Below, piece by piece: positions 4,318 through 49,300 of a stretch of 64,000 nt of DNA. The first letter of the stretch is position 1; every line of letters begins with the position of its first letter. A model generated the notes under the pieces. That model was not told the origin of the DNA. It made no database searches and saw only the letters and a program-made list of their open reading frames with translations. Source of the DNA: Patescibacteria group bacterium (GTDB lineage Bacteria > Patescibacteriota > Patescibacteriia > Patescibacteriales > JAQTRU01); NCBI GenBank assembly GCA_028716725.1, contig JAQUPG010000005.1, forward strand, positions 2,453 to 66,452, read 5' to 3'. The translations under genes were made by a program, and so were the position numbers.

Positions 4318-4569
4318 TTACCATTTATTAATTTTATCCACAACTTTTTGTTTTAGCCCCAAATATGATTTTACAGCCTTCTTTTCCGCTTCCGGCGATA
4401 CTAAGCGCAATATTTCCTTACCTAAAATTCGATACTGGCCCCCAACTTTATTGGCTTTTATTAGCCCCTTCTTGAGCAGACGCTTAATAGTGCTATTGCT
4501 TATTTTTAACAGCTCTTGAGTCTCTATGGTGGTATAAACTGCGTTTGATTTTATTTCGTCATTGTTCAT
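4318..4569 (-). CDS. Excisionase/MerR-type helix-turn-helix DNA-binding protein
   Basis: YTTIETQELLKISNSTIKRLLKKGLIKANKVGGQYRI is a typical HTH_17/excisionase-family pattern. The track ORF begins at a TTG (4605) inside a repeat array; I prefer the ATG at 4569. Confidence 0.6.
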   Translation of the reverse strand: MNNDEIKSNAVYTTIETQELLKISNSTIKRLLKKGLIKANKVGGQYRILGKEILRLVSPEAEKKAVKSYLGLKQKVVDKINKW

Positions 4570-4575
4570 ATTGGT

Positions 4576-4616
4576 ATTATACCGTAAGGTGTCAACAGGT
4601 GTCAACAGGTGTCAAC
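4576..4616 (-). promoter_or_regulatory. Consensus sigma70-like promoter built from a triple 10-bp tandem repeat
   Basis: On the minus strand, GTTGACACCT occurs 3 times in tandem (4587-4616), each copy carrying TTGACA. TATAAT lies at 4581-4576. The middle copy (TTGACA 4605-4600) is 18 nt from the -10 box. The ATG at 4569 is about 7 nt downstream of the -10 box. Confidence 0.45.
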
Positions 4617-17409: not shown

Positions 17410-18492
17410 CTACGGGATTGCTCTGATAATATTTTTTACTAAATTTTCAAGGCTATGATTTTTTACCACTATCTCCCTTAAACTTTTCCCTATTGTCTGA
17501 AATTGTTCAACCGGCAAATTATAAATATGTTCTATTTTTTCCGCTAAACCCTTAAAATCTTTTTTGGAATACATCAACTCTCGGCGATAATCTCTCAAAA
17601 CTTCAAGCATAGCCTCATTACAGGTTATAACCGGCAACTGGCAGGCCATAGCTTCCACCATGGCTTTATCTAAACTGCCGGTTTGCCCCATATTAACGAA
17701 AATGTCTGCCTCTTGCAAAAATGGCACTATATCTTTATTCGCTATGGGACCAATAAATTTTACTTCATTTTCTAAATTTTTATCTTTTACTGATTGGGAT
17801 AATTTATTAAAATAATTTTTATCAGATTCGGTGGCTGGCCCGCCAATAATTTTTACGTTTATTTTTATTCCTTTATTTTTTAAAATTTCAACAGCTTTAA
17901 TCAGGGTTGCGTAATCCTTAGACGGGGAGATTCTGCCTATAGAAATTATCTTAAATTTACTACCCGAAATCCGAAGTCCGAAATCCGAAGTCCGAAATTT
18001 GTTCACGTCTATTCCTTGACCGATTATTTTAATTTTACGACTCTTAAGCCGGCAACCGCTGGCTGTAGAAGTAAATATAATATTAACTAGCCTTTCAGCA
18101 ACCTTCAGATAAAAAGGAACGTAGCCATGAGCATACCATAAAGTAATTTTTTTTCCGGCTAGTTTCCAAAAAACTCCTCCTAAAACAACATATTCAGGAT
18201 TCATATGCACAAAAACCTTATCGTAATTTTTTCTTTCCCGGATTATATAATTGTAAAATCTAAGGATAGCTACTAATTTTCGTATGAAATTAAAATATTT
18301 ACCCAAACGCAAGAATTCGTCCTTGCCCAAAGACAGTACTCTTACATTCCCGGGAAACTCGTATCGGCCCCGCTGTAAACAAATTACCGTAACTTTTTCG
18401 CAATGTTTGGCAAATTCCTCTATCCAACTATGCATAAACCCTAAAACATCGTCATCAATATCTACCTTTTGGGTTAAAATAAGCAATTTCAT
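17410..18492 (-). CDS. Family 4 (GT-B) glycosyltransferase
   Basis: 360 aa; GRISPSKD...; E-x7-E-like region SLDKAMVEAMACQLPVITCNE. Confidence 0.8.
   Translation of the reverse strand: MKLLILTQKVDIDDDVLGFMHSWIEEFAKHCEKVTVICLQRGRYEFPGNVRVLSLGKDEFLRLGKYFNFIRKLVAILRFYNYIIRERKNYDKVFVHMNPEYVVLGGVFWKLAGKKITLWYAHGYVPFYLKVAERLVNIIFTSTASGCRLKSRKIKIIGQGIDVNKFRTSDFGLRISGSKFKIISIGRISPSKDYATLIKAVEILKNKGIKINVKIIGGPATESDKNYFNKLSQSVKDKNLENEVKFIGPIANKDIVPFLQEADIFVNMGQTGSLDKAMVEAMACQLPVITCNEAMLEVLRDYRRELMYSKKDFKGLAEKIEHIYNLPVEQFQTIGKSLREIVVKNHSLENLVKNIIRAIP
17964..17998. repeat. 2.5 copies of a 14-bp tandem unit CCGAAATCCGAAGT inside the GT4 coding sequence
   Basis: Read directly: ccgaaatccgaagt ccgaaatccgaagt ccgaaat. 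It encodes the inter-domain loop RTSDFGLRISGS. Confidence 0.8.
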
Positions 18493-32366: not shown

Positions 32367-34711
<2,345 letters not shown>

Positions 34712-34723
34712 TTATAGAACACT

Positions 34724-35864
34724 TTATTTACAGCTTTCCGTATAACCAGCTACTTCTAATTGAGCACTTTTATACGGGCCATTACCTGTTGAATTCACCC
34801 ATATTGAATCTTCTCCGCAATATCCGCTGGCAGCCCAGGGACCTCTATTAGCGCGACAAACATTATAGCCCTTATACTGCCCCCAATCGAAACTTATCTG
34901 CGCGCATGAAACATTAATATTAGCAGAAGGACAAGTAGGGCATAAACTGCTCGAACCGCTAACAGAACAAGTAGTACAATTATATACGCTCTCATACCAT
35001 GCCGTATCATCATTTAACTTTGTTATTTGCCCATCACAATTCCAGTCCCAGCCCCTTGTTGAATGCTGTGTGGTATGAAAACCTGCGGCCGGATTTACTT
35101 GCGCATCTGTGTCCAAACAATCCGCATTGCTGGTTGATTTTCCTGTTCCGCAAGATGTAGCGCAAACGCTTGAACCCGTCCCGGCACCATAACTATCGCC
35201 GTCTCCGTCGTTATAACAGGTTAAAAGCTGATAAAAAGAGGCGTTACTATCATTACAGTCAGTGCCAATCAAAGAATTAGCCTGGCATTTTTTAGTGCCC
35301 GAGACAACGGCGTAACGATCTCCGTCAGTATCAACATAGCAATTTCCGGAAATACATTCTCCATCAGAAGAACAAATTTCTCCATTCGCCTTTGAACCAA
35401 CTTCTCCTGTATAAGTGCCGGCAACGCCGAAAATTGTTACTCCGCTTTTAATATTACTGGCGGCCAAGTCATTGTCCAAAGCGCTTTTTGAAGCCTGGTT
35501 AATAAAACATTTCCCGCTATTATTATCAGTACAGTCAACCAAAGTATTATTTAATAAATCAGCCAAACTATTCCAATTGCTTTCGGTTAATACATTATCA
35601 GCAGTAGTGGCAGCCGGTGGCAGCCGCATCGCAACTAGTTCCGCATTTAGTGTGGATTTCATTAACCAGAGTGTTCCAGTTAGTTTGAGAAAGCAAGCCT
35701 GAGCCTCCGGTCTTGGCGTCGTTCCAGGCAGCATAGACGCAAGTAATAGAGATAGCCAGAAAAATGCCAATAGTTAAATAAACAAAACGGTAATTGGTAA
35801 GTTTAAAAAATTTGGAAATAATATTTTTCACCTCGTTAGAAATTTTTTGGTTTTGTCGCTTCAT
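34724..35864 (-). pseudogene. Frameshifted gene for a membrane-anchored Cys-rich surface protein (NWN-motif family); two ORFs (88 aa and 348 aa) split by a 10-bp tandem duplication
   Basis: ORF 35598-35864 supplies the leader, TM helix and the AAWNDAKTGGSG..NWN module and stops at TGA. ORF 34724-35770 in another frame continues with AATTADNVLTESNWN and a Cys-rich ectodomain but has no signal peptide of its own. Deleting one copy of GGCTGCCAC(C/T) (35606-35625) joins the frames exactly. Confidence 0.6.
35606..35625. repeat. 10-bp tandem duplication (minus strand GGCTGCCACC GGCTGCCACT)
   Basis: Read directly on the plus strand as agtggcagcc ggtggcagcc. Confidence 0.9.
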
Positions 35865-35944
35865 ATTTTTTTGACCCCAAAAAAATTCAAACTCGAATTT
35901 CTAATGGGATTCATATGGTTATTTTAAATTAAAAAATACTAAGG

Positions 35945-36328
35945 TTATTCTTCCTCATTAACAATTTCAAAATTAACCGCTACACTTCTCCTGGTTTGTT
36001 GGTAACTGCCGGTAGAAGTAAAGGTTACCTGCGGAGGGGAAAGGGCGGAATCAACCTGGTAAGTGCTGCTGTTGCCCAAGCTGCTGGAAAAAATATTATC
36101 AGTATCAACATCAGGGACGGCATAGTTATTTTTTCTTACTTCCCATAAAGCTCTTTCCGCTCCGGCTTCAGCGGCAAAAAAAGCTTTGATTGACTGCTCC
36201 TGCGTCCGGCTCATTTTTATGCCGGGGACGATTAAACTGGCCGCCCCCAAAGCCACCACTAAAATTCCGGATAAAATCAGTAAAGTTAAAAGAAGCGCCG
36301 TGCCGTCGTTATTTTTTATTTTATTCAT
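35945..36328 (-). CDS. Minor pilin-like protein (PilX-type, no Glu5)
   Basis: 127 aa with N-terminal hydrophobic helix GTALLLTLLILSGILVVALGAASL. Last gene of the pseudopilin operon, with an 8-nt overlap with the upstream gene. Confidence 0.5.
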   Translation of the reverse strand: MNKIKNNDGTALLLTLLILSGILVVALGAASLIVPGIKMSRTQEQSIKAFFAAEAGAERALWEVRKNNYAVPDVDTDNIFSSSLGNSSTYQVDSALSPPQVTFTSTGSYQQTRRSVAVNFEIVNEEE

Positions 36329-36896
36329 AATATCTTGATGATATAGTCGTCTGTATTTTTATGGTTTGTTTATGCATCTCTTTGCCGACAGCTTCAATAT
36401 CCATCTTCATAGTCACTAACGGCTGCCGGCTGTGAAAAGCGCCGATTAGGTCGTCTGTAACTTTAAAGTTTAAACTAGTTACTTTAATCCGGCCGGGAGT
36501 GGTGGAAGCTATATTTTCTCCCCGGACAACATTTATGGCTTCGTCTTTTAAATAATAAGCCACACAGACACCGTCTTTATTTTTGAAATATAAGATATCG
36601 CCCTCGCTGTTGGTGGTGGTATTATAAACCTTATTTATGGCTACGGCCGGCGGGCTGAATAAAGATTCGCAGTCATGGTTGCTTAAAGTCGCCGTCCTGA
36701 TTTCTTTCGCCATGGTTTCAAAAGCGTATCTCATGCTCTCCTGGGTATTTTGGGAAGCAATGGCATTGCGCTGGCTTTCGATCACCAGCCTGAAAATTTC
36801 TGTCGCCGAAAGCATAACCACGGAAAATATGGCCACGGCCACCGTCATCTCCAGCAAAGTCACGCCCTTGTTGTTTTTTATTATATTCCTAAACAT
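36321..36896 (-). CDS. Prepilin-type N-terminal cleavage/methylation domain protein (minor pseudopilin)
   Basis: MFRNIIKNNKG|VTLLEMTVAVAIFSVVML is a class III signal. The track start at 36941 is a TTG; the ATG at 36896 is preferred. Confidence 0.7.
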   Translation of the reverse strand: MFRNIIKNNKGVTLLEMTVAVAIFSVVMLSATEIFRLVIESQRNAIASQNTQESMRYAFETMAKEIRTATLSNHDCESLFSPPAVAINKVYNTTTNSEGDILYFKNKDGVCVAYYLKDEAINVVRGENIASTTPGRIKVTSLNFKVTDDLIGAFHSRQPLVTMKMDIEAVGKEMHKQTIKIQTTISSRYYE

Positions 36897-36985: not shown

Positions 36986-37489
36986 CTACCGCCAATCATA
37001 TAAAATAGTATCGGCCACGTACTGATACGTCTGCCCCCTGTCTTCCCACTGGACGAGGCAGGAAACATTTAATGATTCGGAAGAAGTCTGGGTGATGGTA
37101 ATTAAACGGCTGAACAAAGAATCCAGATCTCCTGCTTGGTGCCAATAATAATCTTCCTCGCCCGCATCATTACTTTGCTGCAATTTTGCCTCTTCAATTC
37201 CCTCCACGCTGGTAATGTTGCCGGCGTAATCCACAATATAATTGCCCGGAGTAATGCCATTATCCCAATCATTGCCCGAAAGCCAATTGTTATCCCTGAT
37301 ATTTCTTGTAAGCTCCAGCCCTTCCTGGGCCAATTGCGAGGCAACTAAATTATTCTTATTTACATATTCCACCTGAACATTCTGGGTAGTTAAGGACAAG
37401 ACCCCGACCAATCCGATGGTAATAATGGAAAAGGCCACTACTATCTCAAGGATCGAAAAGCCTGATTGTTTTTTGAAAAATGTTTTCAT
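36986..37489 (-). CDS. Prepilin-type N-terminal cleavage/methylation domain protein (minor pseudopilin)
   Basis: MKTFFKKQSG|FSILEIVVAFSIITIGLVG is a class III signal with Glu5. Confidence 0.75.
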   Translation of the reverse strand: MKTFFKKQSGFSILEIVVAFSIITIGLVGVLSLTTQNVQVEYVNKNNLVASQLAQEGLELTRNIRDNNWLSGNDWDNGITPGNYIVDYAGNITSVEGIEEAKLQQSNDAGEEDYYWHQAGDLDSLFSRLITITQTSSESLNVSCLVQWEDRGQTYQYVADTILYDWR

Positions 37490-37518: not shown

Positions 37519-38130
37519 CTAATTGGTAACCTCTACCAGCCCGAAGAAATTAACGGCCACAATTTTCGTTAGATCTTCGGTTTCTCCCCCCAACTTTATT
37601 TGTACAATATTATAACTATTTTCTCCATCCCAAATATTAGTGGTTGGATCCGGGGGCAGGAAAGTAATATCAACCAAATTTATTAAAGCGCCCGTGTTTA
37701 TCTCGGTCAGCCCGATACCAGCCGGAAAATTAACCGTTTGCCCGCCCTTATCTTTATCGTCTTCTCCGATATCGTACGCTTTGTTGCCGTTGCTGTCAGC
37801 AAAAATTTTATAACTTCCCGGAAAAGAGGCTTTGTCAAAATGCACCCCCCAGCCGCCGCTGGGAACGCTGCCTCCATACTCTTTCGACCCCAAACTATAG
37901 CTTTGCGCCAACCTTATGTCGCTTATCAATTTCTGCGCCGTCATCGTCAGTTCAGATTGTTTGTTGCCCGAATGGTAATTAGCTAAAAAAGTTCCGGAAA
38001 TCAAAGCAATAATAGAAATGCTCACTATCATCTCTATTAAAGTAAACCCTCTTCTTTTAGAAAGAAGGCCGATCTTATCTTTTACATTTTTTTTCACCCC
38101 GTTAGAAATTTTGTTACTTTTTTTTCCCAT
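37519..38130 (-). CDS. Prepilin-type N-terminal cleavage/methylation domain protein (first and largest pilin of the operon)
   Basis: KRRG|FTLIEMIVSISIIALISG is a canonical class III signal, preceded by an unusually long 28-aa basic leader. Confidence 0.8.
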   Translation of the reverse strand: MGKKSNKISNGVKKNVKDKIGLLSKRRGFTLIEMIVSISIIALISGTFLANYHSGNKQSELTMTAQKLISDIRLAQSYSLGSKEYGGSVPSGGWGVHFDKASFPGSYKIFADSNGNKAYDIGEDDKDKGGQTVNFPAGIGLTEINTGALINLVDITFLPPDPTTNIWDGENSYNIVQIKLGGETEDLTKIVAVNFFGLVEVTN

Positions 38131-38554: not shown

Positions 38555-39859
38555 TTATTGGGGCTTCACTTCTTTCCAGCCGGGCAAAGTCACGTTTACA
38601 TTTACGGTTTCAGTCAGGCTGCAATAATAACCATCGCTGTCAGTTACTTTTAAAGTCACTTCCTGATTTCCGGAAGAGTTAAAAATAAGAACTGGCGTGG
38701 AAGTGGCCGGATCATCAATTGAGGCATTAGGCGCTGTCCATAATAAATCGGTTATAGTGGTTCCGCCGTAGCTGGTTGAACTCTGGGTGAATTTTGCCCC
38801 TTCGTCCTTGCTGGGATTCTCCGGAGACCAGGCAAAAGCAACACCGGGCAATTCATGTTTATAAGTAGTAAAAGACGGACCGGCCGTTAATTCCGAAGAG
38901 AAATTTAAATTATCCCAAACCCTTATCCACCAATAATAAGTCGTATCATAATCTAAATCGTCCGGACCAAGCAGATATTGGCTTGCACTTTCTTCTGTTT
39001 TGCCCGTATCGACAATGGGGCTATCCGGATTGTTGTCGTCATCAACAATCACTTGATAAGCGCTCTGGGAAGATCCCGCATCGGGGTCACTGAATTCCCA
39101 GCGCAAGAAGGCCTGTTTGGCGTAAAGGGAACAAGCCTGCTCTGCGGTCCAATTCGGAGCTGTCGGGTTAGCCGCTTCAGGGGAAATGTTCAATGAAGAA
39201 GAAACTTTATAATCATGCCCGCTGCAGCCGCAGGCGCCGCAGTCTGCGCAATTAAAGCTAATCCAGCCGATACCGGCGCCGTCCTCGCCCCCGTTCCAGG
39301 CCCAACCGCTAAATTCGCTTGTGCTGGAAGCTATGGAAACGCCGAAACTGATTCCTTCAAAATCTATAGGCAAATCTACCGGGAAATCTAAAGGCAACCC
39401 GCCGCCGCTGGGAACGTTAAAATTTATCCAGCCATCATCTTCTAAAGCTAAAATTTTCGCCCAGCCCGTTATCTGGCCAGTGGTATAGTTATAATTAGCT
39501 ATAATAGTTTCCCCGGCTCCGCTATATGGATCAGCTGTCGGAGCTCCCGTATCCGCCCTATTGAAACTAATCCAGCCAATATTCGGGCTCCAAGCGTAGC
39601 CTGAAATATCTCCGGTTTCCGGATCAATACTAACCCCATAATCAATCGTACTACGAGAATCATCGTTTGAACAATTAAAGCTAATCCAGCCGACATTTTC
39701 ACTCCAAGCATAACCAATAACATTATTGCCGCCTACGGCTTGAGCAGTTTCTTCTTGGTCTTTAAATTCAAAATAAGTAATTAAAATCGCGGAACCAATG
39801 CCGATTATTAACATAACCACCAATATTAACCAGGTTTTCAATTTAAAATAGTCTTTCAT
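38555..39859 (-). CDS. Membrane-anchored secreted protein: four G(Y/W)AW...GWI(S/N)FN repeats, an FN3-like domain and a PKD domain
   Basis: TM helix WLILVVMLIIGIGSAILITYF. Repeats GYAWSENVGWISFNC, GYAWSPNIGWISFN, GWAKILALEDDGWINFN and GWAWNGGEDGAGIGWISFNC. C-terminal VTLKVTDSDGYYCSLTETVNV is PKD-like. Start moved to the ATG at 39859. Confidence 0.6.
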   Translation of the reverse strand: MKDYFKLKTWLILVVMLIIGIGSAILITYFEFKDQEETAQAVGGNNVIGYAWSENVGWISFNCSNDDSRSTIDYGVSIDPETGDISGYAWSPNIGWISFNRADTGAPTADPYSGAGETIIANYNYTTGQITGWAKILALEDDGWINFNVPSGGGLPLDFPVDLPIDFEGISFGVSIASSTSEFSGWAWNGGEDGAGIGWISFNCADCGACGCSGHDYKVSSSLNISPEAANPTAPNWTAEQACSLYAKQAFLRWEFSDPDAGSSQSAYQVIVDDDNNPDSPIVDTGKTEESASQYLLGPDDLDYDTTYYWWIRVWDNLNFSSELTAGPSFTTYKHELPGVAFAWSPENPSKDEGAKFTQSSTSYGGTTITDLLWTAPNASIDDPATSTPVLIFNSSGNQEVTLKVTDSDGYYCSLTETVNVNVTLPGWKEVKPQ

Positions 39860-39870
39860 ATTTTTATAAA

Positions 39871-40290
39871 TTATTTGCAACAATAACGAACGCATTGGTA
39901 AATCTCTTTTACATAGCTATTGCTCGCAAAGGCCTCACTTAACCAAAATTTTGGAGATTCTCCAACAGACGTATAACCGCTCGGGCAAGCCGGGGGAGTG
40001 CAAGTACACGGGCAATTATTCGAAGGATAAGTGTCGCAATAACAGCCGCCGAAAGTATTAAAGCACTGTCCTTTGGCGTCAATTTTAGTATTAAGAGCGG
40101 AAAATTCAGACTGAAGCATAGTGGCCAGCTCATTCCAATTGCTTTCCGAAAGCTGCCCGGTCCCCCCGGTTTTAGCACTATCCCAAGTAGCATAAACATA
40201 AGTAGCACCCACCGCTAAAAATATGCCAATAATTAGATAAAACAAACGAGAAGAGATAAATTTTAAGGATTTTTTAAAAATGTTTTTCAT
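39871..40290 (-). CDS. Small membrane-anchored Cys-rich protein, NWN-motif family (paralog of the 35864 gene N-terminus)
   Basis: 139 aa. LFYLIIGIFLAVGATYVYATWDSAKTGGTGQLSESNWNEL aligns with FVYLTIGIFLAISITCVYAAWNDAKTGGSGLLSQTNWNTL. Confidence 0.5.
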   Translation of the reverse strand: MKNIFKKSLKFISSRLFYLIIGIFLAVGATYVYATWDSAKTGGTGQLSESNWNELATMLQSEFSALNTKIDAKGQCFNTFGGCYCDTYPSNNCPCTCTPPACPSGYTSVGESPKFWLSEAFASNSYVKEIYQCVRYCCK

Positions 40291-41175: not shown

Positions 41176-42198
41176 TTAATCCCCGATTACTAAACTTTTA
41201 ATCATGGCGGCAAAAATATTTATATAATCCAGAGTTTCGCTCGAACCGGCATTATACGACAAAACAAAAAGGTAGTTGCGGTTACTGTCTGTTAAATAAA
41301 CAATCAAGCCGTCTGTGCTCTTTATGCCCGACCAGCCGTTTCCGCTGACTTCCGGTCCTAATTCCGTAGTTTCAACTGCAAATTGCTGCACGTACCAGTC
41401 TTCAATAGATTGTTTGTCCGTATTCGGCTGAACAATCAGTTGGATAAACTGATTATCTTCTGATTTAAACATAATTGAATCATCACCGCCGACAGAAGTT
41501 CTTGGCCAATTGGCGGGATAAAGCACTTTATAACCGAAAGTTCCGTTTATATACTCGCCGATATTGGGATTATCGGCTAGTTTGCCGCTACCGACCGGAT
41601 TATATAAATTCATTATTTCTTCATAGTCAGAATAGCCGTCGGCGTCACTGTCAACATTCCCGTCATCAGTACCCAGTAAAGTTTCTTCTTTATTAGTTAA
41701 ACCGTCGCCATCCCTGTCTCCTAAAAAAATCTCTTCAGCCGGCGTAGAAGTGGCCAGAACTTCTGTCTCTTCCGGAGTCGTAGAGGCGCCGCTTTCTTCT
41801 GGGCCGCCTAGATATTCTTCCTGAGTGACAATGGGCAGAACTTCTTCCGAGGGGGTGCTGGTTTCAACTTCTTCGTTGCTTAAGGGCTCGGGAGTGTAGG
41901 TTTCGTTTTGTTGAGGAATTGGCGCAACTTGTTTTTCGGCCGGAGCTTTAAAAATAAAAAGATAGAGTAAAAAGCCGATAACTACTATAAATATAAACCC
42001 TCCAACCATAACAAAAATTCCGGTTTGCTTGGCCTTGTCTGTTTTTAGGCTGTCCTGCCTGAATTTTTCCGGCATCGTGTGAATAACAATTTCTTCACCC
42101 ATCCTTTTATCCATCATTTCTTTCTCTTCGTCTTTGCCGGAAATTTTATCTTTTTCTTCTGAAATTTCTTTTTTTTGTTTTTTTAGAAAACTAAACAT
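41176..42198 (-). CDS. Single-pass membrane protein with E/P/T-rich linker, thrombospondin type-3-like Ca-binding repeats and an extra C-terminal domain
   Basis: TM helix GIFVMVGGFIFIVVIGFLLYLFIF. DRDGDGLTNKEE..DSDADGYSDYEEIMNLYNPVGSGKL (nt about 41578-41718), followed by a roughly 130-aa domain. Confidence 0.55.
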   Translation of the reverse strand: MFSFLKKQKKEISEEKDKISGKDEEKEMMDKRMGEEIVIHTMPEKFRQDSLKTDKAKQTGIFVMVGGFIFIVVIGFLLYLFIFKAPAEKQVAPIPQQNETYTPEPLSNEEVETSTPSEEVLPIVTQEEYLGGPEESGASTTPEETEVLATSTPAEEIFLGDRDGDGLTNKEETLLGTDDGNVDSDADGYSDYEEIMNLYNPVGSGKLADNPNIGEYINGTFGYKVLYPANWPRTSVGGDDSIMFKSEDNQFIQLIVQPNTDKQSIEDWYVQQFAVETTELGPEVSGNGWSGIKSTDGLIVYLTDSNRNYLFVLSYNAGSSETLDYINIFAAMIKSLVIGD

Positions 42199-42222
42199 AT
42201 TTATTTATAAATTTATAATCCC

Positions 42223-42882
42223 CTATTGTATCTCATACAATTTACCTGCCCCGGCCGGGTTATAGCCATTCTTTACCTCATCCCCGTCCGAATAGCCGTC
42301 GCCGTCCGTATCAGTAACTAAAGGATTAGTTTTATAAACCTTTACCTCTTCCCGGTCAAATAAGCCGTCACTGTCGGTGTCAATATTGTTGATATCAGTC
42401 CCTAAGCTCCTCTCCTCTTCGTCAGATAAGCCGTCTTGGTCGCTATCAGCCGGCCCGACTACGCTCGGAGGGAAAAACACGCTTTCGGCCGGAAAAGGCG
42501 ATTCTTCCGCCACCGGCGCTTCTTCCGGCGCTGGCTCTGGAGTTTGATTTTCTTCGGGAAAATTAGGAACTCCCCCTCCCGTTAAATTTTCTTCCTGCGT
42601 CTGGTCTCCCGTTCCCTGGCTTAAAGTCGTATCAATCTTTTTTAAAACCCAAAAAATACCAAATATAATTAAAACTACTACTACAATCAGTATAGCAAAA
42701 ATAAGGAGTTTTTTCATCTTTTCTTTTCTCTCTCCCCCCTCTTCCCCAACTCCGGCCATAGGGACTGGCGGCGGAACCGGAGTCGGCCCGACTGGCTTTA
42801 AAATATCTGGCTTTCCGCCCTTTTCCGTGTCGGAAAAAATATCTTCCACTTTGTTAGTTTTTTTGTTTAAATCGTCGAACAT
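42223..42882 (-). CDS. Single-pass membrane protein ending in thrombospondin type-3-like repeats
   Basis: TM helix LLIFAILIVVVVLIIFGIFWVL. DSDQDGLSDEEE, DTDSDGLFDREE, DTDGDGYSDGDEVKNGYNPAGAGKLYEIQ-stop. Confidence 0.55.
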   Translation of the reverse strand: MFDDLNKKTNKVEDIFSDTEKGGKPDILKPVGPTPVPPPVPMAGVGEEGGERKEKMKKLLIFAILIVVVVLIIFGIFWVLKKIDTTLSQGTGDQTQEENLTGGGVPNFPEENQTPEPAPEEAPVAEESPFPAESVFFPPSVVGPADSDQDGLSDEEERSLGTDINNIDTDSDGLFDREEVKVYKTNPLVTDTDGDGYSDGDEVKNGYNPAGAGKLYEIQ

Positions 42883-42965
42883 ATTTTTAAAGTCTTTAAA
42901 AATAAAATAATATAAAAATTAACTTCCTTCTTTTTTTATTTTATTTTGTTATTTTATTATTTTAA

Positions 42966-43790
42966 TTATTTTAATCTTCCCTCCCCTAAAGGGTTATACC
43001 CGTTTTTTACCTCATCTCCGTCCGAATAGCCGTCCCCGTCCGTATCCGCTTTTTTCGGGTCAGTGCCATAAACAGCTTCGTCTTTATCAGTTAAACCGTC
43101 ATTATCACTATCAATATCACTATTACTGTCGCTGTCAGTTTTTTTATTAACTAAGTCTCCGTTACAATAATTTTTTAAATATTCCTCTTTTATATTATCG
43201 CACAATTTTTTGTCTCCTTGCCAGATAGACATTCGATAATAAACATTGTCTTCACACATTTTCTTTGTTTCTTCCACTTTAAGGCCTGAACAATCTTCGG
43301 GCTTCTCGTATGCTCCAAAAATACCGGAAAAACAATCTATTTTAAGGTCAACAATCTTCACGGAAAGACATTCGTCAATTTCAGCCTCCGCCGTTTTATT
43401 TAAAATTTCATTTACGCATTCAATTTTTTTCTGCTCATCTCCGATTTCTTCAAAACCATGACTGCAGAAATCGTGCCTCTCTGTCAGAAAGGCTACGGCT
43501 GAAACACAATTTTCTTTGTCAGCTCTGTCTTCGCATGGTTCCAAATTTTCTTTCGCCGCTGTCTCGGTATAAAATTTTATTTGTTCGGAAGTAAATTCAG
43601 GATATTTTTCTTCCATTTCCGTTAAAAGGGATTTTGGGATTTCTTTTTCCGTTAACGTGTTTTCATTATTTTTTACGACGATATTATTTTCTATCTTTTT
43701 ATCTTGAATCTTTAATATAAAGATCAAAATAACCAACAAAAATAATATAATGATTCCCAAAATAATAATTTTCGTTTTCTTATTAAACAT
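42966..43790 (-). CDS. Single-pass membrane protein with a Cys-containing ectodomain ending in thrombospondin type-3-like repeats
   Basis: TM helix IIILGIIILFLLVILIFIL. DSDNDGLTDKDE, DTDGDGYSDGDEVKNGYNPLGEGRLK-stop. Confidence 0.55.
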   Translation of the reverse strand: MFNKKTKIIILGIIILFLLVILIFILKIQDKKIENNIVVKNNENTLTEKEIPKSLLTEMEEKYPEFTSEQIKFYTETAAKENLEPCEDRADKENCVSAVAFLTERHDFCSHGFEEIGDEQKKIECVNEILNKTAEAEIDECLSVKIVDLKIDCFSGIFGAYEKPEDCSGLKVEETKKMCEDNVYYRMSIWQGDKKLCDNIKEEYLKNYCNGDLVNKKTDSDSNSDIDSDNDGLTDKDEAVYGTDPKKADTDGDGYSDGDEVKNGYNPLGEGRLK

Positions 43791-43799
43791 AATTTTAAT

Positions 43800-46370
43800 T
43801 TATTTCCAACATCTAAAATTAGCTGTTGTATGATTTGTGGTTATAATCCAATTTCTTAAATCAGATGTGCTTTGACTTAATTTACAACTGTAATCAGAAT
43901 CACTTGTTGTGCAGCCTGATGTTTTTGTTGTCCGAGTTGCGCATGGATCCAGCCATTGAACAAGATTATAACCAGACGGAGTTTCAGCTCCACATTTTCT
44001 TCCACAACAATCACATCCATCTTTCCCGCAACTTGTCAGTTCACAACAAGCATAATCATTCATTGTTGGATTGGTAGTGTTGCACGCCGTGGAAGAATTA
44101 CCTACCACATCTGGGGCTGGGATAACACAACTACTCCATCCTCCACAATTACTATTGCAAGTTTGCGTTCCTGAAATCTCCATACCAGTACAATGTGCGG
44201 GGAAACCTTCGGCGTACGTGCTTGTGCAAGCTTGAGCAGGAACATTTTTATCGCAAACCTCCGGCCCATTCTTTATACTATCTCCGCAATAACCGCCGGT
44301 CATAGTGCAAGTAGCCGTACATCCATATTGCTTCGTTGATGAACTGTCGGAAGGTGAAGAAGCAATTCCGGCGGTCTTATCGCATACTTCTCCCTTGCTA
44401 TCTTGTATTTTTTCATCTCCGCAATAACCGCCGGTAAATTGGCAGCTGCTGTCGCAGGCATATTGCTTATTAATGGAACTGCCGGCGGGATTAGCGGCAA
44501 TATTATCAATCGTGTCGCATTTTTCCGCCAAACCTTCCCCGTTTGTGGCTTGCCAGACACCGTCTCCGCAATAAGTATTAACTTTTAAAGTAAGATTTTT
44601 AGGACTGCTGATTGCGCCGTATTGGTCAGCGGCCGTAATTGCTATGGTATAATTGCCGGCCGTATCCGGCTTGCCGGAAATTTCACCGGTAGAAGTATTG
44701 CCAGCCATACCGTTTGGCAACCCAGAGGAAGAGAAAGAGCCAATACTATAAGAGAAAGAGAAAGAGCTAATGCTATGCCCGTCAGGATCTGAAGCCGTAA
44801 TAAGACAAGGGGTATAATCATTATTTATTCTTACTTTGGTACTACAACTAGCAGGAATGCTGACAACCGGCTTATGGTTAATAACTTTTAAATTGAAAAG
44901 TTGGGACAAAGAGGAAACCCCCTGGGAATTAGTTGCACTTGCGGAAATAGAATAATTTTCATACATATTATCCCCGCCGTCTTTAGTAAGGGAAAAAGTA
45001 TTGCCAATTACGCTTTGGACACGGCAGTCGTGCCCATTAATAATAGTGCAGCTTATCAGGGCCGGGTTGAAATTAAAGGATGAAAAGGAATTTCCGGTCG
45101 GGTCAGTAGCATAAATCGTAAAATCCAAAGTCCTGCCAATAATAATCTCTTTGTCGGCGATGGGAGTAACAACCGGCAAAGCAGAGCCAATAATACTAAT
45201 AGAGCAGGTTTTTGTAACGCGTCCGTCCTCTTTGTTGTCATCAACCGTTACGGTGAAACTATAAGTTCCCTGGGCTCCGGCGGCTGTAGCGGAAATTTCC
45301 TTCTGATTAGTTGCGCCCCCCAAGGTGCTGTTAAGCCAAGCCGCGCCAGCCGTATCTATGCTCCAGGTAAGCGGGTCCCCGTCAAGGTCGCTCGCGCTGA
45401 TATATCCCTTAAACGGTTTGTTCGGATTGCCGACCAAATTATTGCAAATGATAGTCGGGGGATTATTTTCCGTCGTTCCGCCATGCTTTACGGCCTCGCT
45501 GCCGGCGCAAGCTCCGGCGTCTAAAGTCGTTATTAATCCGGATTCCATGACCGCGCAGACATTGTAGCTGGAACCGTCAGCGGCGGCCGTATAAACAAAA
45601 GCGTTGCTGCCGGTTGGCAAATTAAATTCGCTGTCAACTGGCGTTGGGTCGGCAAATGATTTGTCCGCTTCCTTCCAGCAGGTGGAAGAATCATATCCGG
45701 GGCAAGCGCCTAATTTGTTTATCGGATCAGTCGGCAAGCCTGTCCCTAATTCCTTAGCCAGAGTCTGCTGCCAGCTTGGCCAGGTGGAAATGGTTTTCCC
45801 GGGCAAATAAGTGCCAGCGGATAATTTTGGATAATAACCCATTTCTTCTTTATAATTCTCTACTGCCATCTTTATTTCCGCCAAACTGGCTAATCTTTTG
45901 GCATCGCGGGCAATTAGAACTTTTTGTTCGGAATCCTCGATATTAGTGTTAAATTTCCAATGGGCAATAATCTGGTCCAGAATATTCTTGGTAGCGGCTT
46001 CCGCTTCCTGATTATAAGAAATAAGGTAAATATTGGTATATAACCCGTTGCCAACAACATTGGCGGCATTAACATAAACCGTCCGCCCGTCGCGCAGAGC
46101 TTCGTAGCCGTCGACGGTTAATCCCTGAGGCGACCCCTTAAATCCCTGCTCGCTGTACCAGCGGGAAATGCTAAGATGGTCAGGGTTGGGAATAACCCGG
46201 ATCGCGATCGCGTCCGGGCTGTTTGTTTTCCCCGTCTGCGCCAGAACATAAGAATATTTTGTATCTTTTAAAAATCCAAGGGCAAAAAAACTAAAAACAA
46301 CAATACCCAGGAGGATGGTTAAAACTCCGCTTATTTTTAATTTATTTTTTAAAAAATTAAAAAATCGCAT
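43800..46370 (-). CDS. Large secreted protein: pilin-head-like segment, cadherin/Ig-like domains, Myxococcus-type cysteine-rich repeats, Cys-rich C-terminus
   Basis: 856 aa with an N-terminal TM/signal. ARDAKRLASLAEIKMAVENYKEEMGYYP resembles CPR pilin globular heads. SASDLDGDPLTWSI, ASDPDGHSISSF and LPNGM..NTSTGEISGKPDTAGNYTIAITAADQYG are Cadg/He_PIG-like. Three copies of YCGD(G/E/S)...CD...C...C follow. Confidence 0.6.
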   Translation of the reverse strand: MRFFNFLKNKLKISGVLTILLGIVVFSFFALGFLKDTKYSYVLAQTGKTNSPDAIAIRVIPNPDHLSISRWYSEQGFKGSPQGLTVDGYEALRDGRTVYVNAANVVGNGLYTNIYLISYNQEAEAATKNILDQIIAHWKFNTNIEDSEQKVLIARDAKRLASLAEIKMAVENYKEEMGYYPKLSAGTYLPGKTISTWPSWQQTLAKELGTGLPTDPINKLGACPGYDSSTCWKEADKSFADPTPVDSEFNLPTGSNAFVYTAAADGSSYNVCAVMESGLITTLDAGACAGSEAVKHGGTTENNPPTIICNNLVGNPNKPFKGYISASDLDGDPLTWSIDTAGAAWLNSTLGGATNQKEISATAAGAQGTYSFTVTVDDNKEDGRVTKTCSISIIGSALPVVTPIADKEIIIGRTLDFTIYATDPTGNSFSSFNFNPALISCTIINGHDCRVQSVIGNTFSLTKDGGDNMYENYSISASATNSQGVSSLSQLFNLKVINHKPVVSIPASCSTKVRINNDYTPCLITASDPDGHSISSFSFSYSIGSFSSSGLPNGMAGNTSTGEISGKPDTAGNYTIAITAADQYGAISSPKNLTLKVNTYCGDGVWQATNGEGLAEKCDTIDNIAANPAGSSINKQYACDSSCQFTGGYCGDEKIQDSKGEVCDKTAGIASSPSDSSSTKQYGCTATCTMTGGYCGDSIKNGPEVCDKNVPAQACTSTYAEGFPAHCTGMEISGTQTCNSNCGGWSSCVIPAPDVVGNSSTACNTTNPTMNDYACCELTSCGKDGCDCCGRKCGAETPSGYNLVQWLDPCATRTTKTSGCTTSDSDYSCKLSQSTSDLRNWIITTNHTTANFRCWK

Positions 46371-46382
46371 AATTATTTTAAA

Positions 46383-49300
46383 TTATGGGGTCGCCACTGG
46401 TCTTGCTGATACTTCATTTGAGTATGCACTCCCCTGACCGTTAATATTAATGGATTTAACCGCAAAATAATAAGTTGTGCCGTTGACTAAACCGGTAACA
46501 TGGCCATTTGTTATATTACTCTCGGGATAGGACTCATTATAACTGCCAGAATCAGTTCCCTGATAAATTTTATAACTTACGGCTCCGTCTGCTTTTTTCC
46601 AAGTTAATATAACCAAGCCATTACCAGCCGTGGCGGAAAGATCAGCCGGGGCGGCAAAGGGAGTCGCTTCTTCCTCCTGAGAATATGTGCCCTCCAGACC
46701 ATCGGCGTTAACAGATTTAATAACAAAATAATAAGTTGTACCATTGGTTAAACCGTTAGTCGTATATTTTGCATCTGTTAAGCCTTCGGCAATAGAGACG
46801 TCGTAAGTACCCGCAGCTTCCCTTTTATAGACTTTATAGCTAACCGCCCCAACTGCCGCATGCCAAATTAAGTCAACCTGCATATCACCAGCCGTGGCGT
46901 AAATATTAGTGGGAGTAGCCACGGGGATAGCCGATTTAGCAGCTTTTTCGCTTTCATTATTCTCTGCATCATAAGCCGCTACGCCAAAACAATATTTTGT
47001 GCCATTAGTTAAGCCAGAAATAGTCACCGGACTTTTATTGGCCGCCTGCGAATCGCCAAAATTTACAGAATCGTTGCATGTGTCAGTCGCCTTATAATAA
47101 ACCCTAAAACTTGTTGCTTCCGGATCACTGGTCCAGCTTATTGTTACTTTTCTATCTCCCGGGGTTAGAGTCATTGTCGGAATTGCCGGGCCCTCTTTAT
47201 CTTCTATTTTAATTTCGATTACGTTAGAAAGCGCGCTTTCTACATTATCTGCCCCCTCGCCGTAATAAGCCGTTATGGCAAAATAATAATTATTCCCGTT
47301 ATTTAAATCATCGGAAATATTATAGGCGGTGCCCTGCCCAAGCTCTACTGAAGTCTTATCGCCAACGTCTAAGGGAGAATATTTGCCGTTTAAATTATTT
47401 ATATTTGGACCATAATAAACTTTATAACCGCTGACACCCGTATCTTTTATACAAGTGCTCTCATCAGAACAGGGCAAACCAACTCCGCAACTTTCGCCAT
47501 TATCACATTGGCCGAGAGGGTGCCAAACTAAGCTGACCGCTTTCCCCTGGGGCAGGGCCTCTCCTGACAATAAGGCGTCAGAAGCCATACTCGGCGTTCC
47601 TTCCCGGAAAAAATAAGCTTCCTTTAGAATATCCTGAATCTTTGATTCTCCCCTGACAATCGTATCCTCGGATAAAATTGCCGGCAAATCATCAGCAGAA
47701 CCGGCCGCTCCCCGGTCGCGGCAATAGTATAATTCATAATTAGTATTATAACAGCAAGAATCGCTTCCGGCACCGCAATTATGATCATCAATGGTGCAAT
47801 TTGTACTTTTATCCCGCCACGGCTCCCAGGTGCTGTCGGCTTTAATCGGCGGCCAGGGATTAGCGCATAAAAATACATACACTTCCGCCCGGCCGGTTTT
47901 GGTCTGCCCAACGGTGCTGGCCCCCGAAACTGTATCTTCGGTTATAGTGGCCGTCGCTTTTATAAGCGTTTTTCCGTCTTTAACGTTTTGGGCCGTTACT
48001 GTCTGAACAGAACTAACGGGGCTGCCAGAATTAGTAACTTCGGCGATTTGGCTATTGTCAGAACCCCAATTCCATCCCCAATTATACCCGGTAACGGGAC
48101 TTATAGTCTGTCCGCTGGCAGAAAGCGGCTTTGCCTCAAAAGATTGAGCGGAAACGGCGCCGGCAGTTTTAAAAAGATAGCGGGGAGGGTAAATACTGAC
48201 GCTGGATAATTGGCAAATATCATTGCCGGTGGTAAATGACCAAATTTTTGCCTTAGTAAAAGTTTTGCCGCCAAAGGTTTCCGTATCATTTTCATTCAGG
48301 CCGATTTCTAAACTGGAAAGCACTCCTTTGCTGCTGTCAAGATTTTCATCGCCTTTTATAACCACATAATATTTCCGTTTTTTTTCTAAGGGTTTATTAA
48401 GGCTAAAGGTTAAATCAGTCGTCCCGTCCGCCTTATTAACTCCGTTTACCATACCGGTAAGAGCGCAATAATTATGGCTCGGGTCGGTTGTGCCGGCTAA
48501 AACTTTTCCGCCGAATAAGGGGCGTGCGACTTTAGCCAGAACTGATAAAACTTTCCTATAAAAACTAACCGCTAAATTTTTTCTTACAACCGGGCCGTTA
48601 TTTAAAGCCAAATATTGGGTGCCGGCAGGGCAGACACTGTTCTCATAATCTCCCACAACAACAACATTGCCGGAGAAACTGGCAATATCCATTTTTTCAT
48701 TGAAATTCGCGGAAATCAAAGTATTAAGGCAGACACCAGCCGCATCCCCGGCCGGGTAAACGCTGGAAACCCTGGGTTTTGCGCGACAGCAAGTATCGGA
48801 AGAGCAGCCCACCGACTCCTTTGAACCGCAGTCCTGGTCTTCTTCGCAGCCGCAATAAAGTCCGCGGGTAGCGCCGGTGCAAGGCGATTTGTTCGGGGCG
48901 CAAATCAAACCATTGGCATTAACTTCCGGCGTACCCGGGTTACAACAGCAGGTACCGCATTCATCATCAGCCGCTGTGCGGCAACTATAATCCGTACCGC
49001 AACTAAAACTGGCGTTACAAACTAATTCCGGCATAGTTGAAGCTACGCATCTCTTGCCCGGCCGGCTTACCTGCGAACATTTTTCTCCGCAATCTTTACT
49101 GGTTTCATAAACGCTTCTAGTTGAGCTGGCTACCGGATTATTATCTGAATCGCAAGCATCGCCGCCAGCCTTGCATTGATAATATTGGCAATAAGCTAAA
49201 TCATCTTTTGAATCATCATACTTAACCATATTTTTATCGCCTGTTCCGCCTCGGCAGATATATTTGTTCATAGCATCAACGCAACAAGTAGTATGTTTTG

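What the first reader, a model, noticed from the sequence alone, without database searches (positions are those of the whole stretch)
34724..35864. A 10-bp tandem duplication exactly accounts for the frameshift splitting a surface-protein gene (possible on/off switch)
On the coding strand the sequence reads GCG GCT GCC ACC GGC TGC CAC TAC TGC TGA. GGCTGCCACC is immediately followed by GGCTGCCACT (35625-35606). The upstream 88-aa ORF carries the leader, TM helix and NWN module, and terminates 6 nt after the duplication. The downstream 348-aa ORF carries a second NWN module plus a Cys-rich ectodomain with DxDxDG-like and CxDxD..VNP motifs. It is open in the other frame and has no credible signal peptide of its own.

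Removing one 10-bp copy yields ...CDAAATTADNVLTESNWN..., a continuous 376-aa protein. This could be a fixed pseudogene, population heterogeneity collapsed in assembly, or a slipped-strand, duplication-based phase switch of an exposed protein.
Basis: seen in the sequence. Interest (0 to 1): 0.6.

Follow-up and report, generated by a model that had tools for sequence, protein, structure and literature searches.

The report
Frameshifted surface-protein gene beside pilin operon
A gene for a membrane-anchored, cysteine-rich surface protein next to the pilus genes of an uncultured Patescibacteria bacterium is broken by a frameshift at a perfect 10-base tandem repeat, but relatives show the gene is only one base too long, and nothing indicates an on/off switch.

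Summary
CGGCTGCCAC occurs twice in tandem at 35626-35607 (minus strand), exactly where an 88-aa ORF and a downstream 296-codon frame meet. Deleting one copy gives a 376-aa ORF.

It is one broken gene, not two. The syntenic orthologue (P0003, directly upstream of ligA in a related Patescibacteria genome) and 16 other family members are single ORFs across this point.

The interpretation needs correcting. All 17 relatives have exactly 21 residues from the Cys to the second NWN. Removing 10 bp gives 18 residues. Removing one nucleotide (T35612, or a G or C at 35614-35617) gives 21 and restores the family consensus A-T-[G/A]-A-T. A family HMM prefers the 1-nt repairs by about 10.5 bits. The orthologue already carries the same 10/9-nt quasi-repeat. 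The net lesion is therefore +1 nt in a GC-rich, slippage-prone quasi-repeat.

The one-copy allele is not the ancestral gene. The mutational path stays ambiguous.

The identical frameshifted allele is in all five available assemblies, and no intact allele exists in the public protein collection. A phase switch is unsupported but cannot be tested without reads. The most likely reading is a recently inactivated, fast-evolving candidate pilus-associated adhesin gene. This is ordinary.

The parts
35607..35626 (-). Perfect tandem repeat CGGCTGCCAC x2 (80% G+C in a 40% G+C window). This is where the reading frame changes.
35612..35612 (-). Best candidate for the single extra nucleotide: the T between GGC and GCC. 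Removing it gives ...CDAAATGATTADNV..., colinear with the orthologue's GAT GCG GCC GCT ATT GGC GCT ACG. Removing one G (35614/35615) or one C (35616/35617) is equivalent in frame and gives ATAAT.
35598..35864 (-). Upstream 88-aa ORF: the N-terminal fragment, with basic leader, TM anchor, first NWN motif and KCGTSCD, ending in the out-of-frame tail GCHYC*. Most homologues start at the position of GTG 35828 (MKNI...).
34724..35629 (-). Downstream 301-aa ORF as annotated by NCBI (P0001, starts MRLPPAAT at an ATG created inside the repeat region). Its real content begins at ...ATTADNVLTESNWN: second NWN motif, the CTDNNxGKCFINQ..NIKSG..IFGVAG repeat unit, then a Cys-rich head with DxDxDG motifs. 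The frame is open back to 35770.
35945..36328 (-). 127-aa gene, 79% identical to the first 126 aa of the orthologous locus's 307-aa protein. It has a PilX-like hydrophobic N-terminus. The window copy lacks the Cys-rich C-terminal domain.
36324..36896 (-). Minor pilin, PilW/GspJ/PpdB-like (N_methyl motif). It carries a CAG->TAG nonsense at codon 52 in sister MAG GCA_028713775.1.
36986..37489 (-). Minor pilin, PilV-like (N_methyl).
37519..38130 (-). Minor pilin, GspH/FimU-like (N_methyl).
39871..40290 (-). Intact second member of the same family: 139 aa, same N-terminal anchor plus first NWN motif, and a short Cys-rich tail ending CCK. It sits in the conserved slot after the DAGK gene.
32654..34708 (-). 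NAD-dependent DNA ligase LigA, the conserved downstream neighbour that defines synteny with the orthologous locus.

Best explanation
This is one gene inactivated by a frameshift. As far as public data show, the allele is fixed in the population.

The intact gene belongs to an uncharacterised Patescibacteria family. The family has a signal-anchor TM helix, a conserved module of about 140 aa with two NWN motifs joined by a 21-residue Ala/Thr-rich linker, and one 'CTDNNGGKCFINQ...IFGVAG' unit. These are followed by a highly variable Cys-rich head. Here the head carries DxDxDG Ca-binding-like motifs.

The gene is the last one of a type IV minor-pilin operon (FimU/GspH-like, PilV-like, PilW-like, PilX-like, then this gene, then ligA). 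That is the operon position PilY1-type tip adhesins hold in model bacteria. I infer it is a pilus-associated or cell-surface adhesin whose head is swapped between lineages.

The codons of the conserved linker (GCG GCN GCN AYN GGC GCN ACN) form a GC-rich quasi-repeat of 10 + 9 nt in relatives. In this lineage the second unit has gained one nucleotide, which makes a perfect 10 + 10 tandem and shifts the frame by +1. Translation from the normal start ends after 88 residues. The 296 downstream codons lose their membrane-targeting N-terminus.

Shown: the split, the synteny, the +1 net length difference, and the same allele in five assemblies. Inferred: the mutational path (a single-base insertion, or successive slippage events at the quasi-repeat), loss of function, and the adhesin role. 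The intact downstream ORF suggests the event is recent.
For: One gene, not two:
- The positional orthologue P0003 (322 aa, immediately upstream of ligA-gatC-gatA and after the same pilin genes at 86-90% aa identity) is a single ORF.
- Seventeen family members are contiguous across the site.

Net +1 nt:
- 11 distinct homologue DNAs all have 63 nt from the Cys codon to NWN, and the window has 64.
- The linker is 21 aa in 17/17 members.
- The 1-nt-repaired protein aligns without gaps to 11 homologues, with invariant A82, A85 and T86 in place.
- A family HMM built without the window scores 237.2 to 237.5 bits for the 1-nt repairs against 226.9 for the 10-bp deletion.
- The orthologue has GAT GCG GCC GCT ATT GGC-GCT ACG, against GAT GCG GCT GCC ACC GGC T GCC ACT in the window.

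Not an artefact, and no visible heterogeneity:
- The identical 20-nt repeat is in the window contig, GCA_028712785.1, GCA_028713775.1, and Logan assemblies of SRR22315508 and SRR22315509.
- No fused allele exists among 15 billion proteins.

Decay and turnover context:
- The sister MAG differs by 3 SNPs in 3.4 kb, and none is synonymous. One is a nonsense in the adjacent PilW-like gene.
- Another family member (P0035) is split by a 10-nt deletion in three assemblies.
- The slot between the pilX-like gene and ligA differs in gene content between the two related genomes.

Pilin operon.

Slippage at GC-rich direct and quasi-repeats is a documented route of gene inactivation in host-associated bacteria (PMC4948707).
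Against: A random single-base insertion into this linker produces a perfect 10-nt tandem in only 0.02 to 0.2% of simulations. The perfection of the repeat is therefore not explained by a simple untemplated insertion. It suggests repeat-mediated events, for example +10 then -9, or -9 then +10, and the path is unresolved.

The downstream 296 codons are still fully open. That fits a very recent lesion, but it equally fits an allele kept for reversion.

No read-level data were available, so minority alleles cannot be excluded. The five assemblies probably come from one study and nearly one strain (100% and 99.9% identity).

The function of the family is inferred only from topology and gene position. 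There was no Pfam, NCBIfam, PHROG or PDB hit, and the AlphaFold model was unusable.
Confidence: 0.68

Rival explanations
1. The lineage's intact gene had a single copy (18-residue linker, 376 aa), and a de novo 10-bp tandem duplication inactivated it. It is a plain pseudogene whose cause is the duplication.
For: The two copies are identical at 10/10 positions. That is expected for a fresh duplication and happens by chance after a random 1-nt insertion in only 0.02 to 0.2% of simulations. Removing one copy restores a clean ORF.
Against: It needs two events at the same spot: an earlier 9-nt in-frame deletion never seen in 17 relatives, then the duplication. The one-copy protein scores 10.5 bits worse against the family HMM. 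There is no flanking microhomology: the bases on either side of the 20-mer do not extend the repeat. The frame-0 reading T-G after the first copy matches the orthologue's I-G and the homologues' T-G codon for codon, which would be a coincidence under this model.
Confidence: 0.2
2. Reversible, duplication-based phase variation. The 10-bp unit is gained and lost by slipped-strand mispairing, switching the surface protein between OFF (two copies) and ON (one copy). This would resemble the spontaneous tandem duplications that switch pneumococcal capsule genes.
For: A perfect tandem repeat lies inside the ORF of an exposed, fast-evolving protein. The downstream ORF is undamaged over 296 codons. Precedent: Waite et al. 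2001 and 2003, cap3A/cap8E/tts duplications, as cited in PMC4022640.
Against: All five assemblies carry two copies, and no one-copy or fused protein appears anywhere in the public collection. The Logan contigs do not break at the repeat. The putative ON allele would be three residues shorter than every relative at a length-invariant linker. No relative has the perfect repeat, so it is not a conserved device. The other broken family member is broken at a different site by a deletion. A nonsense mutation in the adjacent pilin gene of a sister strain argues for relaxed selection on the locus.
Confidence: 0.1
3. The frameshift is bypassed or tolerated. Either a programmed +1 ribosomal frameshift (or stop-codon recoding) yields a full-length protein, or the two ORFs work as separate proteins.
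For: The overlap is short, and both halves are intact.
Against: There is no slippery codon at ACC GGC TGC CAC (GGC to GCU re-pairing fails; my reading). The frame-0 stop TGA is followed at once by TAA, so UGA reassignment would not help. The +1 nucleotide is absent from all relatives, so there is no conserved recoding site. Orthologues are single genes. Without the N-terminal anchor, a product with about 30 Cys would stay in the cytoplasm. The annotated ATG 35629 lacks the AT-rich leader seen upstream of other genes here.
Confidence: 0.03
4. Sequencing or assembly artefact: the real genome has an intact gene.
For: Single MAG consensus sequences can carry indel errors.
Against: The identical sequence is found in three MAG assemblies and two independent Logan assemblies of separate runs. 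The site is not a homopolymer.
Confidence: 0.02

Closest known systems
Frameshift pseudogenes generated by replication slippage at direct or quasi-repeats in host-associated bacteria (e.g. Candidatus Sodalis pierantonius; PMC4948707)
   Same: An indel at a short G+C-rich (80% versus a 40% background) direct/quasi-repeat inside a coding region inactivates a gene in a reduced-genome, host-dependent bacterium. The repeat is a by-product of coding sequence, not a dedicated device.
   Different: The events described there are overwhelmingly deletions. Here the net change is a 1-nt gain that makes the repeat perfect. The organism is a Patescibacteria MAG, and the slippage history is inferred, not reconstructed.
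Tandem-duplication phase variation of pneumococcal capsule genes (cap3A, cap8E, tts; Waite et al. 2001, 2003, cited in PMC4022640)
   Same: A short perfect tandem duplication inside an ORF for a surface structure puts the gene out of frame. Precise loss of one copy would restore a reading frame.
   Different: In pneumococcus the one-copy allele is the wild type, and both states are recovered from one culture at high frequency. Here the one-copy allele is not the family's normal configuration, and only the two-copy state has been observed.
Type IV pilus minor-pilin operons with a terminal non-pilin adhesin (fimU-pilVWXY1E of Pseudomonas; PilC/PilY1). Comparison from my own knowledge.
   Same: Gene order: GspH/FimU-like, PilV-like, PilW-like and PilX-like genes, followed by a larger non-pilin exposed protein with Ca-binding-type DxDxDG motifs.
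   Different: There is no sequence similarity to PilY1/PilC and no Pfam hit. The protein has an uncleaved-looking TM anchor instead of a signal peptide. The head is a small Cys-rich domain rather than a beta-propeller.

Membership tests
Frameshift-disrupted gene (pseudogene) | Orthologues and paralogues encode one continuous protein across the break | tested here: met
   Syntenic orthologue P0003, and 17/17 family members, are contiguous.
Frameshift-disrupted gene (pseudogene) | The lesion is real and reproducible, not an assembly error | tested here: met
   The same 20-nt repeat is in 5 assemblies.
Frameshift-disrupted gene (pseudogene) | The downstream part cannot be made in functional form | tested here: inconclusive
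   There is no slippery site and no own anchor, and TGA is followed by TAA. Expression was not testable.
Tandem-duplication phase variation (pneumococcal cap3A type) | Perfect tandem duplication within the ORF that shifts the frame | tested here: met
   CGGCTGCCAC x2 at 35607-35626.
Tandem-duplication phase variation (pneumococcal cap3A type) | The single-copy allele is the normal functional gene | tested here: not met
   The single-copy form has an 18-residue linker against 21 in 17/17 relatives, and scores 10.5 bits lower on the family HMM than the 1-nt repairs.
Tandem-duplication phase variation (pneumococcal cap3A type) | Both states coexist or interconvert in a population | tested here: inconclusive
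   Only the two-copy state appears in 5 assemblies, and no fused protein is in the collection. Read-level frequencies are not available with these tools.
Simple-sequence-repeat contingency locus | A tract of many copies of a 1-7 nt unit (or a long homopolymer) in the ORF or promoter, with copy number varying between strains | tested here: not met
   There are two copies of a 10-nt unit. Copy number is identical in all strains and assemblies. Relatives lack the perfect repeat.
Programmed +1 ribosomal frameshift (prfB type) | Slippery P-site codon next to a stop or hungry codon, conserved among orthologues | tested here: not met
   No re-pairing codon exists at the junction. The extra nucleotide is absent from all 11 homologue DNAs.
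Type IV pilin / pseudopilin | N-terminal prepilin cleavage/methylation motif (G|FxxxE) | tested here: not met
   There is no N_methyl hit for the repaired protein, while three neighbours have it.
PilY1/PilC tip adhesin | PilY1/PilC C-terminal domain homology | tested here: not met
   There are no Pfam or NCBIfam hits. Only the operon position is analogous.
MopE-like 'putative metal-binding motif' proteins (PF11617) | Pfam PF11617 match | tested here: not met
   There is no hit at E<=1 for the window protein. Only a distant hit, P0026, carries PF11617. The DxDxDG/DCxDxD strings are seen by eye.

The most novel reading that the evidence does not exclude
The perfect 10-bp tandem is a young, reversible switch. 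Slippage removes or adds a unit, turning a pilus-operon adhesin of an episymbiotic Patescibacteria bacterium on as a 3-residue-shorter but functional protein, or off. Frequent frameshifts in this gene family (a second member is also split) would then reflect contingency behaviour in host attachment rather than decay.
Probability: 0.08. Interest if true: 0.55.

Novelty: new member of a known kind. Interest (0 to 1): 0.25.

Why it matters
As it stands, this is an annotation-level result. Two 'hypothetical proteins' in three public MAGs (PHZ04_04220/04225 and their equivalents) are halves of one frameshifted gene. The obvious repair, dropping one repeat copy, does not recreate the ancestral protein.

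The wider context has some value. The gene belongs to an uncharacterised Patescibacteria family with a conserved membrane-anchored stalk and interchangeable Cys-rich heads. The family occupies two fixed slots in a type IV minor-pilin locus, and its members are repeatedly broken or replaced. If type IV pili mediate host attachment in these episymbionts, as shown for Saccharibacteria (PMC11623550, title and abstract only), this family is a reasonable candidate for host-specificity determinants. Its rapid turnover would be worth a dedicated comparative study.

Tried and rejected
- **Family searches.** Pfam, NCBIfam, PHROGs and a PDB sequence search on the repaired protein, its orthologue and the N-terminal-module profile gave nothing usable. 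The best results were chance-level Toxin_29 and papain-like hits.
- **Structure prediction.** AlphaFold2 with a 17-sequence alignment gave mean pLDDT 42 and pTM 0.28. Only residues 60-100 reached about 70-80, as two helices spanning the junction. No fold search was run because matches would be meaningless.
- **Closer relatives and intact alleles.** I used one protein search, cluster look-ups, one scan each of the genome and metagenome collections, and one profile search of 1.8 billion representatives. The closest N-module relatives are about 70-75% identical, and no intact allele of this gene exists.
- **Second split gene.** The 139-aa and 446-aa ORFs at 38555-40290 overlap and looked like a second split gene. 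I rejected this: the 139-aa protein is a complete short family member, and the 446-aa protein has its own TM start and a full-length orthologue.
- **Recoding.** I considered UGA recoding and +1 programmed frameshifting and rejected both (see rivals).
- **Shine-Dalgarno test.** I tried to judge the downstream start by Shine-Dalgarno signals. This genome shows essentially none upstream of any gene, so the test is uninformative. The promoter/terminator scan was at background level.
- **Source study.** A literature search for the run and assembly accessions found nothing.
- **Rfam.** A scan of 34600-36400 found nothing credible.

Full report
**1. The observation**

On the minus strand the sequence reads TGC GAT GCG GCT GCC ACC GGC TGC CAC TAC TGC TGA TAA. 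The exact repeat is CGGCTGCCAC twice, at 35626-35617 and 35616-35607 (Tandem Repeats Finder gives period 10, 2.0 copies and 100% match).

- The 88-aa ORF (35864-35598) stops 6 nt after the repeat.
- The +1 frame is open from 35770 to 34724.
- Deleting one unit gives a 376-aa ORF reading ...CDAAATTADNVLTESNWN....

About 0.1 perfect 10-nt tandems are expected per 64 kb at this composition (my estimate). The only other period-10 perfect array in the window is at 4587-4616.

**2. One gene or two?**

This is P0001, 301 aa, 'MAG: hypothetical protein PHZ04_04220, Patescibacteria group bacterium'. It also returned a family of single-ORF homologues whose first ~150 residues run straight through the break point.

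One of them, P0003 (322 aa), is the positional orthologue. In a 301-kb contig of Patescibacteria isolate SO_2017_SWC_4 the gene order is YbeY, DAGK, a family member, an Ig_Rha78A_N protein, three N_methyl pilin-like genes, two variable genes, P0003, LigA, GatC, GatA. The window has the same order. The pilin-like proteins are 86-90% identical between the two genomes. The window's two ORFs are therefore halves of one gene.

**3. Is the frameshift an artefact, and is the population mixed?**

The exact 88-aa product and the 301-aa product occur in three NCBI MAGs (protein accessions MDD5291286/7, MDD5295062/3, MDD5554467/8). They also occur in Logan assemblies of two separate runs.

I fetched four of these contigs. 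The 20-nt repeat and its flanks are identical in all of them. Overall identity to the window is 100% or 99.9%.

No fused or one-copy allele is present in the 15-billion-protein collection. The Logan contigs do not break at the repeat.

An assembly error is therefore very unlikely, and visible heterogeneity is absent. Minority alleles cannot be assessed without reads.

**4. What the mutation really is**

From the second Cys of KCGxxC to the second NWN, all 17 family members in hand have exactly 21 residues. Examples are CDAKATAATASSDILTENNWN, CDAAAIGATASGNALSENNWN (the orthologue) and even the divergent CDVGHTNAQAIGGQFTKPNWN.

At the DNA level, 11 distinct homologues have 63 nt over this span, and the window has 64.

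| Repair | Linker residues | Junction peptide | Family HMM score |
|---|---|---|---|
| Remove 10 bp (one copy) | 18 | CDAAATTADNV... | 226.9 bits |
| Remove T35612 | 21 | CDAAATGATTADNV... | 237.2 bits |
| Remove one G or C at 35614-35617 | 21 | CDAAATAATTADNV... | 237.5 bits |

Both ATGAT and ATAAT occur in relatives. The 1-nt-repaired protein aligns to 11 homologues without a gap. The HMM was built from 16 homologues without the window.

The orthologue reads GAT GCG GCC GCT ATT GGC GCT ACG. The window reads GAT GCG GCT GCC ACC GGC T GCC ACT. The conserved A-A-[T/I]-G-A-T codons therefore already form a 10 + 9-nt quasi-repeat (CGGCnGCnAy / nGGC-GCnAC) in relatives. In the window the second unit is one base longer, which makes the tandem perfect.

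**5. The mutational path is not settled**

A random single-base insertion into this linker creates a perfect 10-nt tandem in only 0.02 to 0.2% of simulations with the window's codon usage. A purely untemplated insertion therefore requires luck.

- It needs an earlier 9-nt deletion that no relative shows, at the very same place.
- It leaves no flanking microhomology.

Successive slippage events at the quasi-repeat (+10 then -9, or -9 then +10) would also end in the observed state.

Slippage at G+C-rich direct and quasi-repeats is a documented route to gene inactivation in host-associated bacteria (PMC4948707). This repeat is 80% G+C in a 40% G+C window.

Two points are robust:
- Relative to every relative, the gene is one nucleotide too long.
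- The one-copy allele is not the ancestral gene.

**6. Is there a switch?**

There is no positive evidence for one.
- Two copies of a 10-mer is not a classical contingency tract.
- No relative carries the perfect repeat.
- All assemblies are in the same state.

The surroundings look like turnover and decay.
- The sister MAG GCA_028713775.1 differs by three SNPs in 3.4 kb, and none is synonymous. One is CAG->TAG at codon 52 of the adjacent PilW-like gene.
- Another family member (P0035) is split by a 10-nt deletion just after the second NWN, in three independent metagenome assemblies.
- The segment between the PilX-like gene and ligA differs in content between the two related genomes. The PilX-like gene is 307 aa with a Cys-rich tail in the relative and 127 aa here. 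A 224-aa gene in the relative is absent here.

Its defining features are not met, or not testable, here: the one-copy allele should be the wild type, and both states should coexist.

Programmed +1 frameshifting is unlikely. There is no slippery codon, the site is not conserved, and TGA is followed directly by TAA.

**7. What the gene is**

No curated family matches, and no solved structure matches by sequence. The AlphaFold model was too poor to use, with pLDDT 42.

From the sequences the family has:
- a basic leader and a signal-anchor helix;
- the motif VYA[AT]W[ND]xAKTGGSG;
- two NWN motifs separated by the Ala/Thr linker;
- one copy of a unit (CTDNNGGKCFINQ..NIKSG..IFGVAG) that a profile search finds in up to 30 matched stretches in 1,509 proteins;
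- an unrelated, lineage-specific Cys-rich head.

The window's head resembles that of P0002, which has a different N-terminus. Other members carry Lcl_C/DUF1566 or other heads.

The upstream neighbours are a GspH/FimU-like, a PilV-like and a PilW/GspJ/PpdB-like minor pilin, and a PilX-like protein. The gene therefore sits where PilY1-type adhesins sit in model operons. That comparison comes from my own knowledge.

I infer an exposed adhesin or host-recognition protein. This is an inference from topology and position only.

**8. Verdict**

- The gene-split interpretation is right.
- The claim that the 10-bp duplication exactly accounts for the frameshift is only arithmetically right.
- The on/off switch is unsupported.

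The finding is an ordinary, probably recent, frameshift inactivation of a fast-evolving surface-protein gene in an uncultured Patescibacteria bacterium. Read mapping at 35590-35640 is the decisive missing test.

Noticed in passing
L027:773-1225, L028:732-1207, L029:238-671: Another member of the same family (P0035, 93 aa) is also split by a frameshift. A 10-nt deletion right after ...TENNWNNL puts the rest (TSNTLTDCTTDNNGKCFINQ...) in another frame. The lesion is identical in three independent metagenome assemblies. Broken members seem common in this family.
   Followed up: partly
L003:1122 (equivalent to about window 36743, minus strand): Sister MAG GCA_028713775.1 has CAG->TAG at codon 52 of the PilW/PpdB-like minor pilin next to the split gene. 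Its three differences from the window in 3.4 kb comprise this nonsense, a GTC->GAC (Val->Asp) change in the same pilin-like gene, and a K->N change in the split gene.
   Followed up: partly
window 35874-35910 (minus strand), also L006, L010, L011, L012: A conserved hairpin, (A/C)CCC(A/G)TTAGAAATTC-GAGTCT-GAATTTCTTGGGG, lies just upstream of the start codon of several family members. Some homologues carry a second, similar hairpin inside what gene callers translate as an N-terminal extension (MNPIRNSSLNFLGSEKN.../NPVRNEFLSGAN). In the window it is flanked by T7, G4 and A7 runs. The extension is out of frame with the ATG at 35864. There was no Rfam match and no covariation (5 sequences).
   Followed up: partly
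window 35945-36328 vs L021:8349-9970: The slot between the PilW-like gene and ligA is hypervariable between two genomes whose pilins are 86-90% identical. The PilX-like protein has a 180-aa Cys-rich C-terminal domain in the relative but ends at 127 aa here. A 224-aa TM-anchored Cys-rich gene in the relative is missing here.
   Followed up: partly
window 39871-40290 (minus strand): This is an intact 139-aa paralogue of the split gene, with the same anchor and first NWN motif and a short Cys-rich tail. It sits in a second conserved slot after the DAGK gene. The related genome has a 270-aa and a 177-aa member there.
   Followed up: partly
window 4587-4616: A perfect 10-bp x 3 tandem array (AGGTGTCAAC) overlaps the 5' end of a small HTH/excisionase-like ORF (4318-4605, minus strand). 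It could be operator-like repeats.
   Followed up: no
window 51639-51708 and 17964-17998: There is a perfect 36-bp x 1.9 repeat inside the 1896-aa surface protein gene (T4SS_pilin, TIG, Big_5 and fn3 domains). There is also a perfect 14-bp x 2.5 repeat inside a 360-aa ORF (17410-18492, minus strand).
   Followed up: no
window 41176-52073 (minus strand): Upstream of the pilin locus lies a run of large predicted surface proteins: three with bacterial TSP3 Ca-binding repeats, an 856-aa Ig-domain protein, and a 1896-aa protein with an N-terminal T4SS_pilin domain. The whole stretch from 34.7 to 52 kb is devoted to exposed proteins.
   Followed up: no
window-wide, starts of 15 genes: Essentially no Shine-Dalgarno-like sequence precedes any gene start examined. 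The leaders are AT-rich instead.
   Followed up: no
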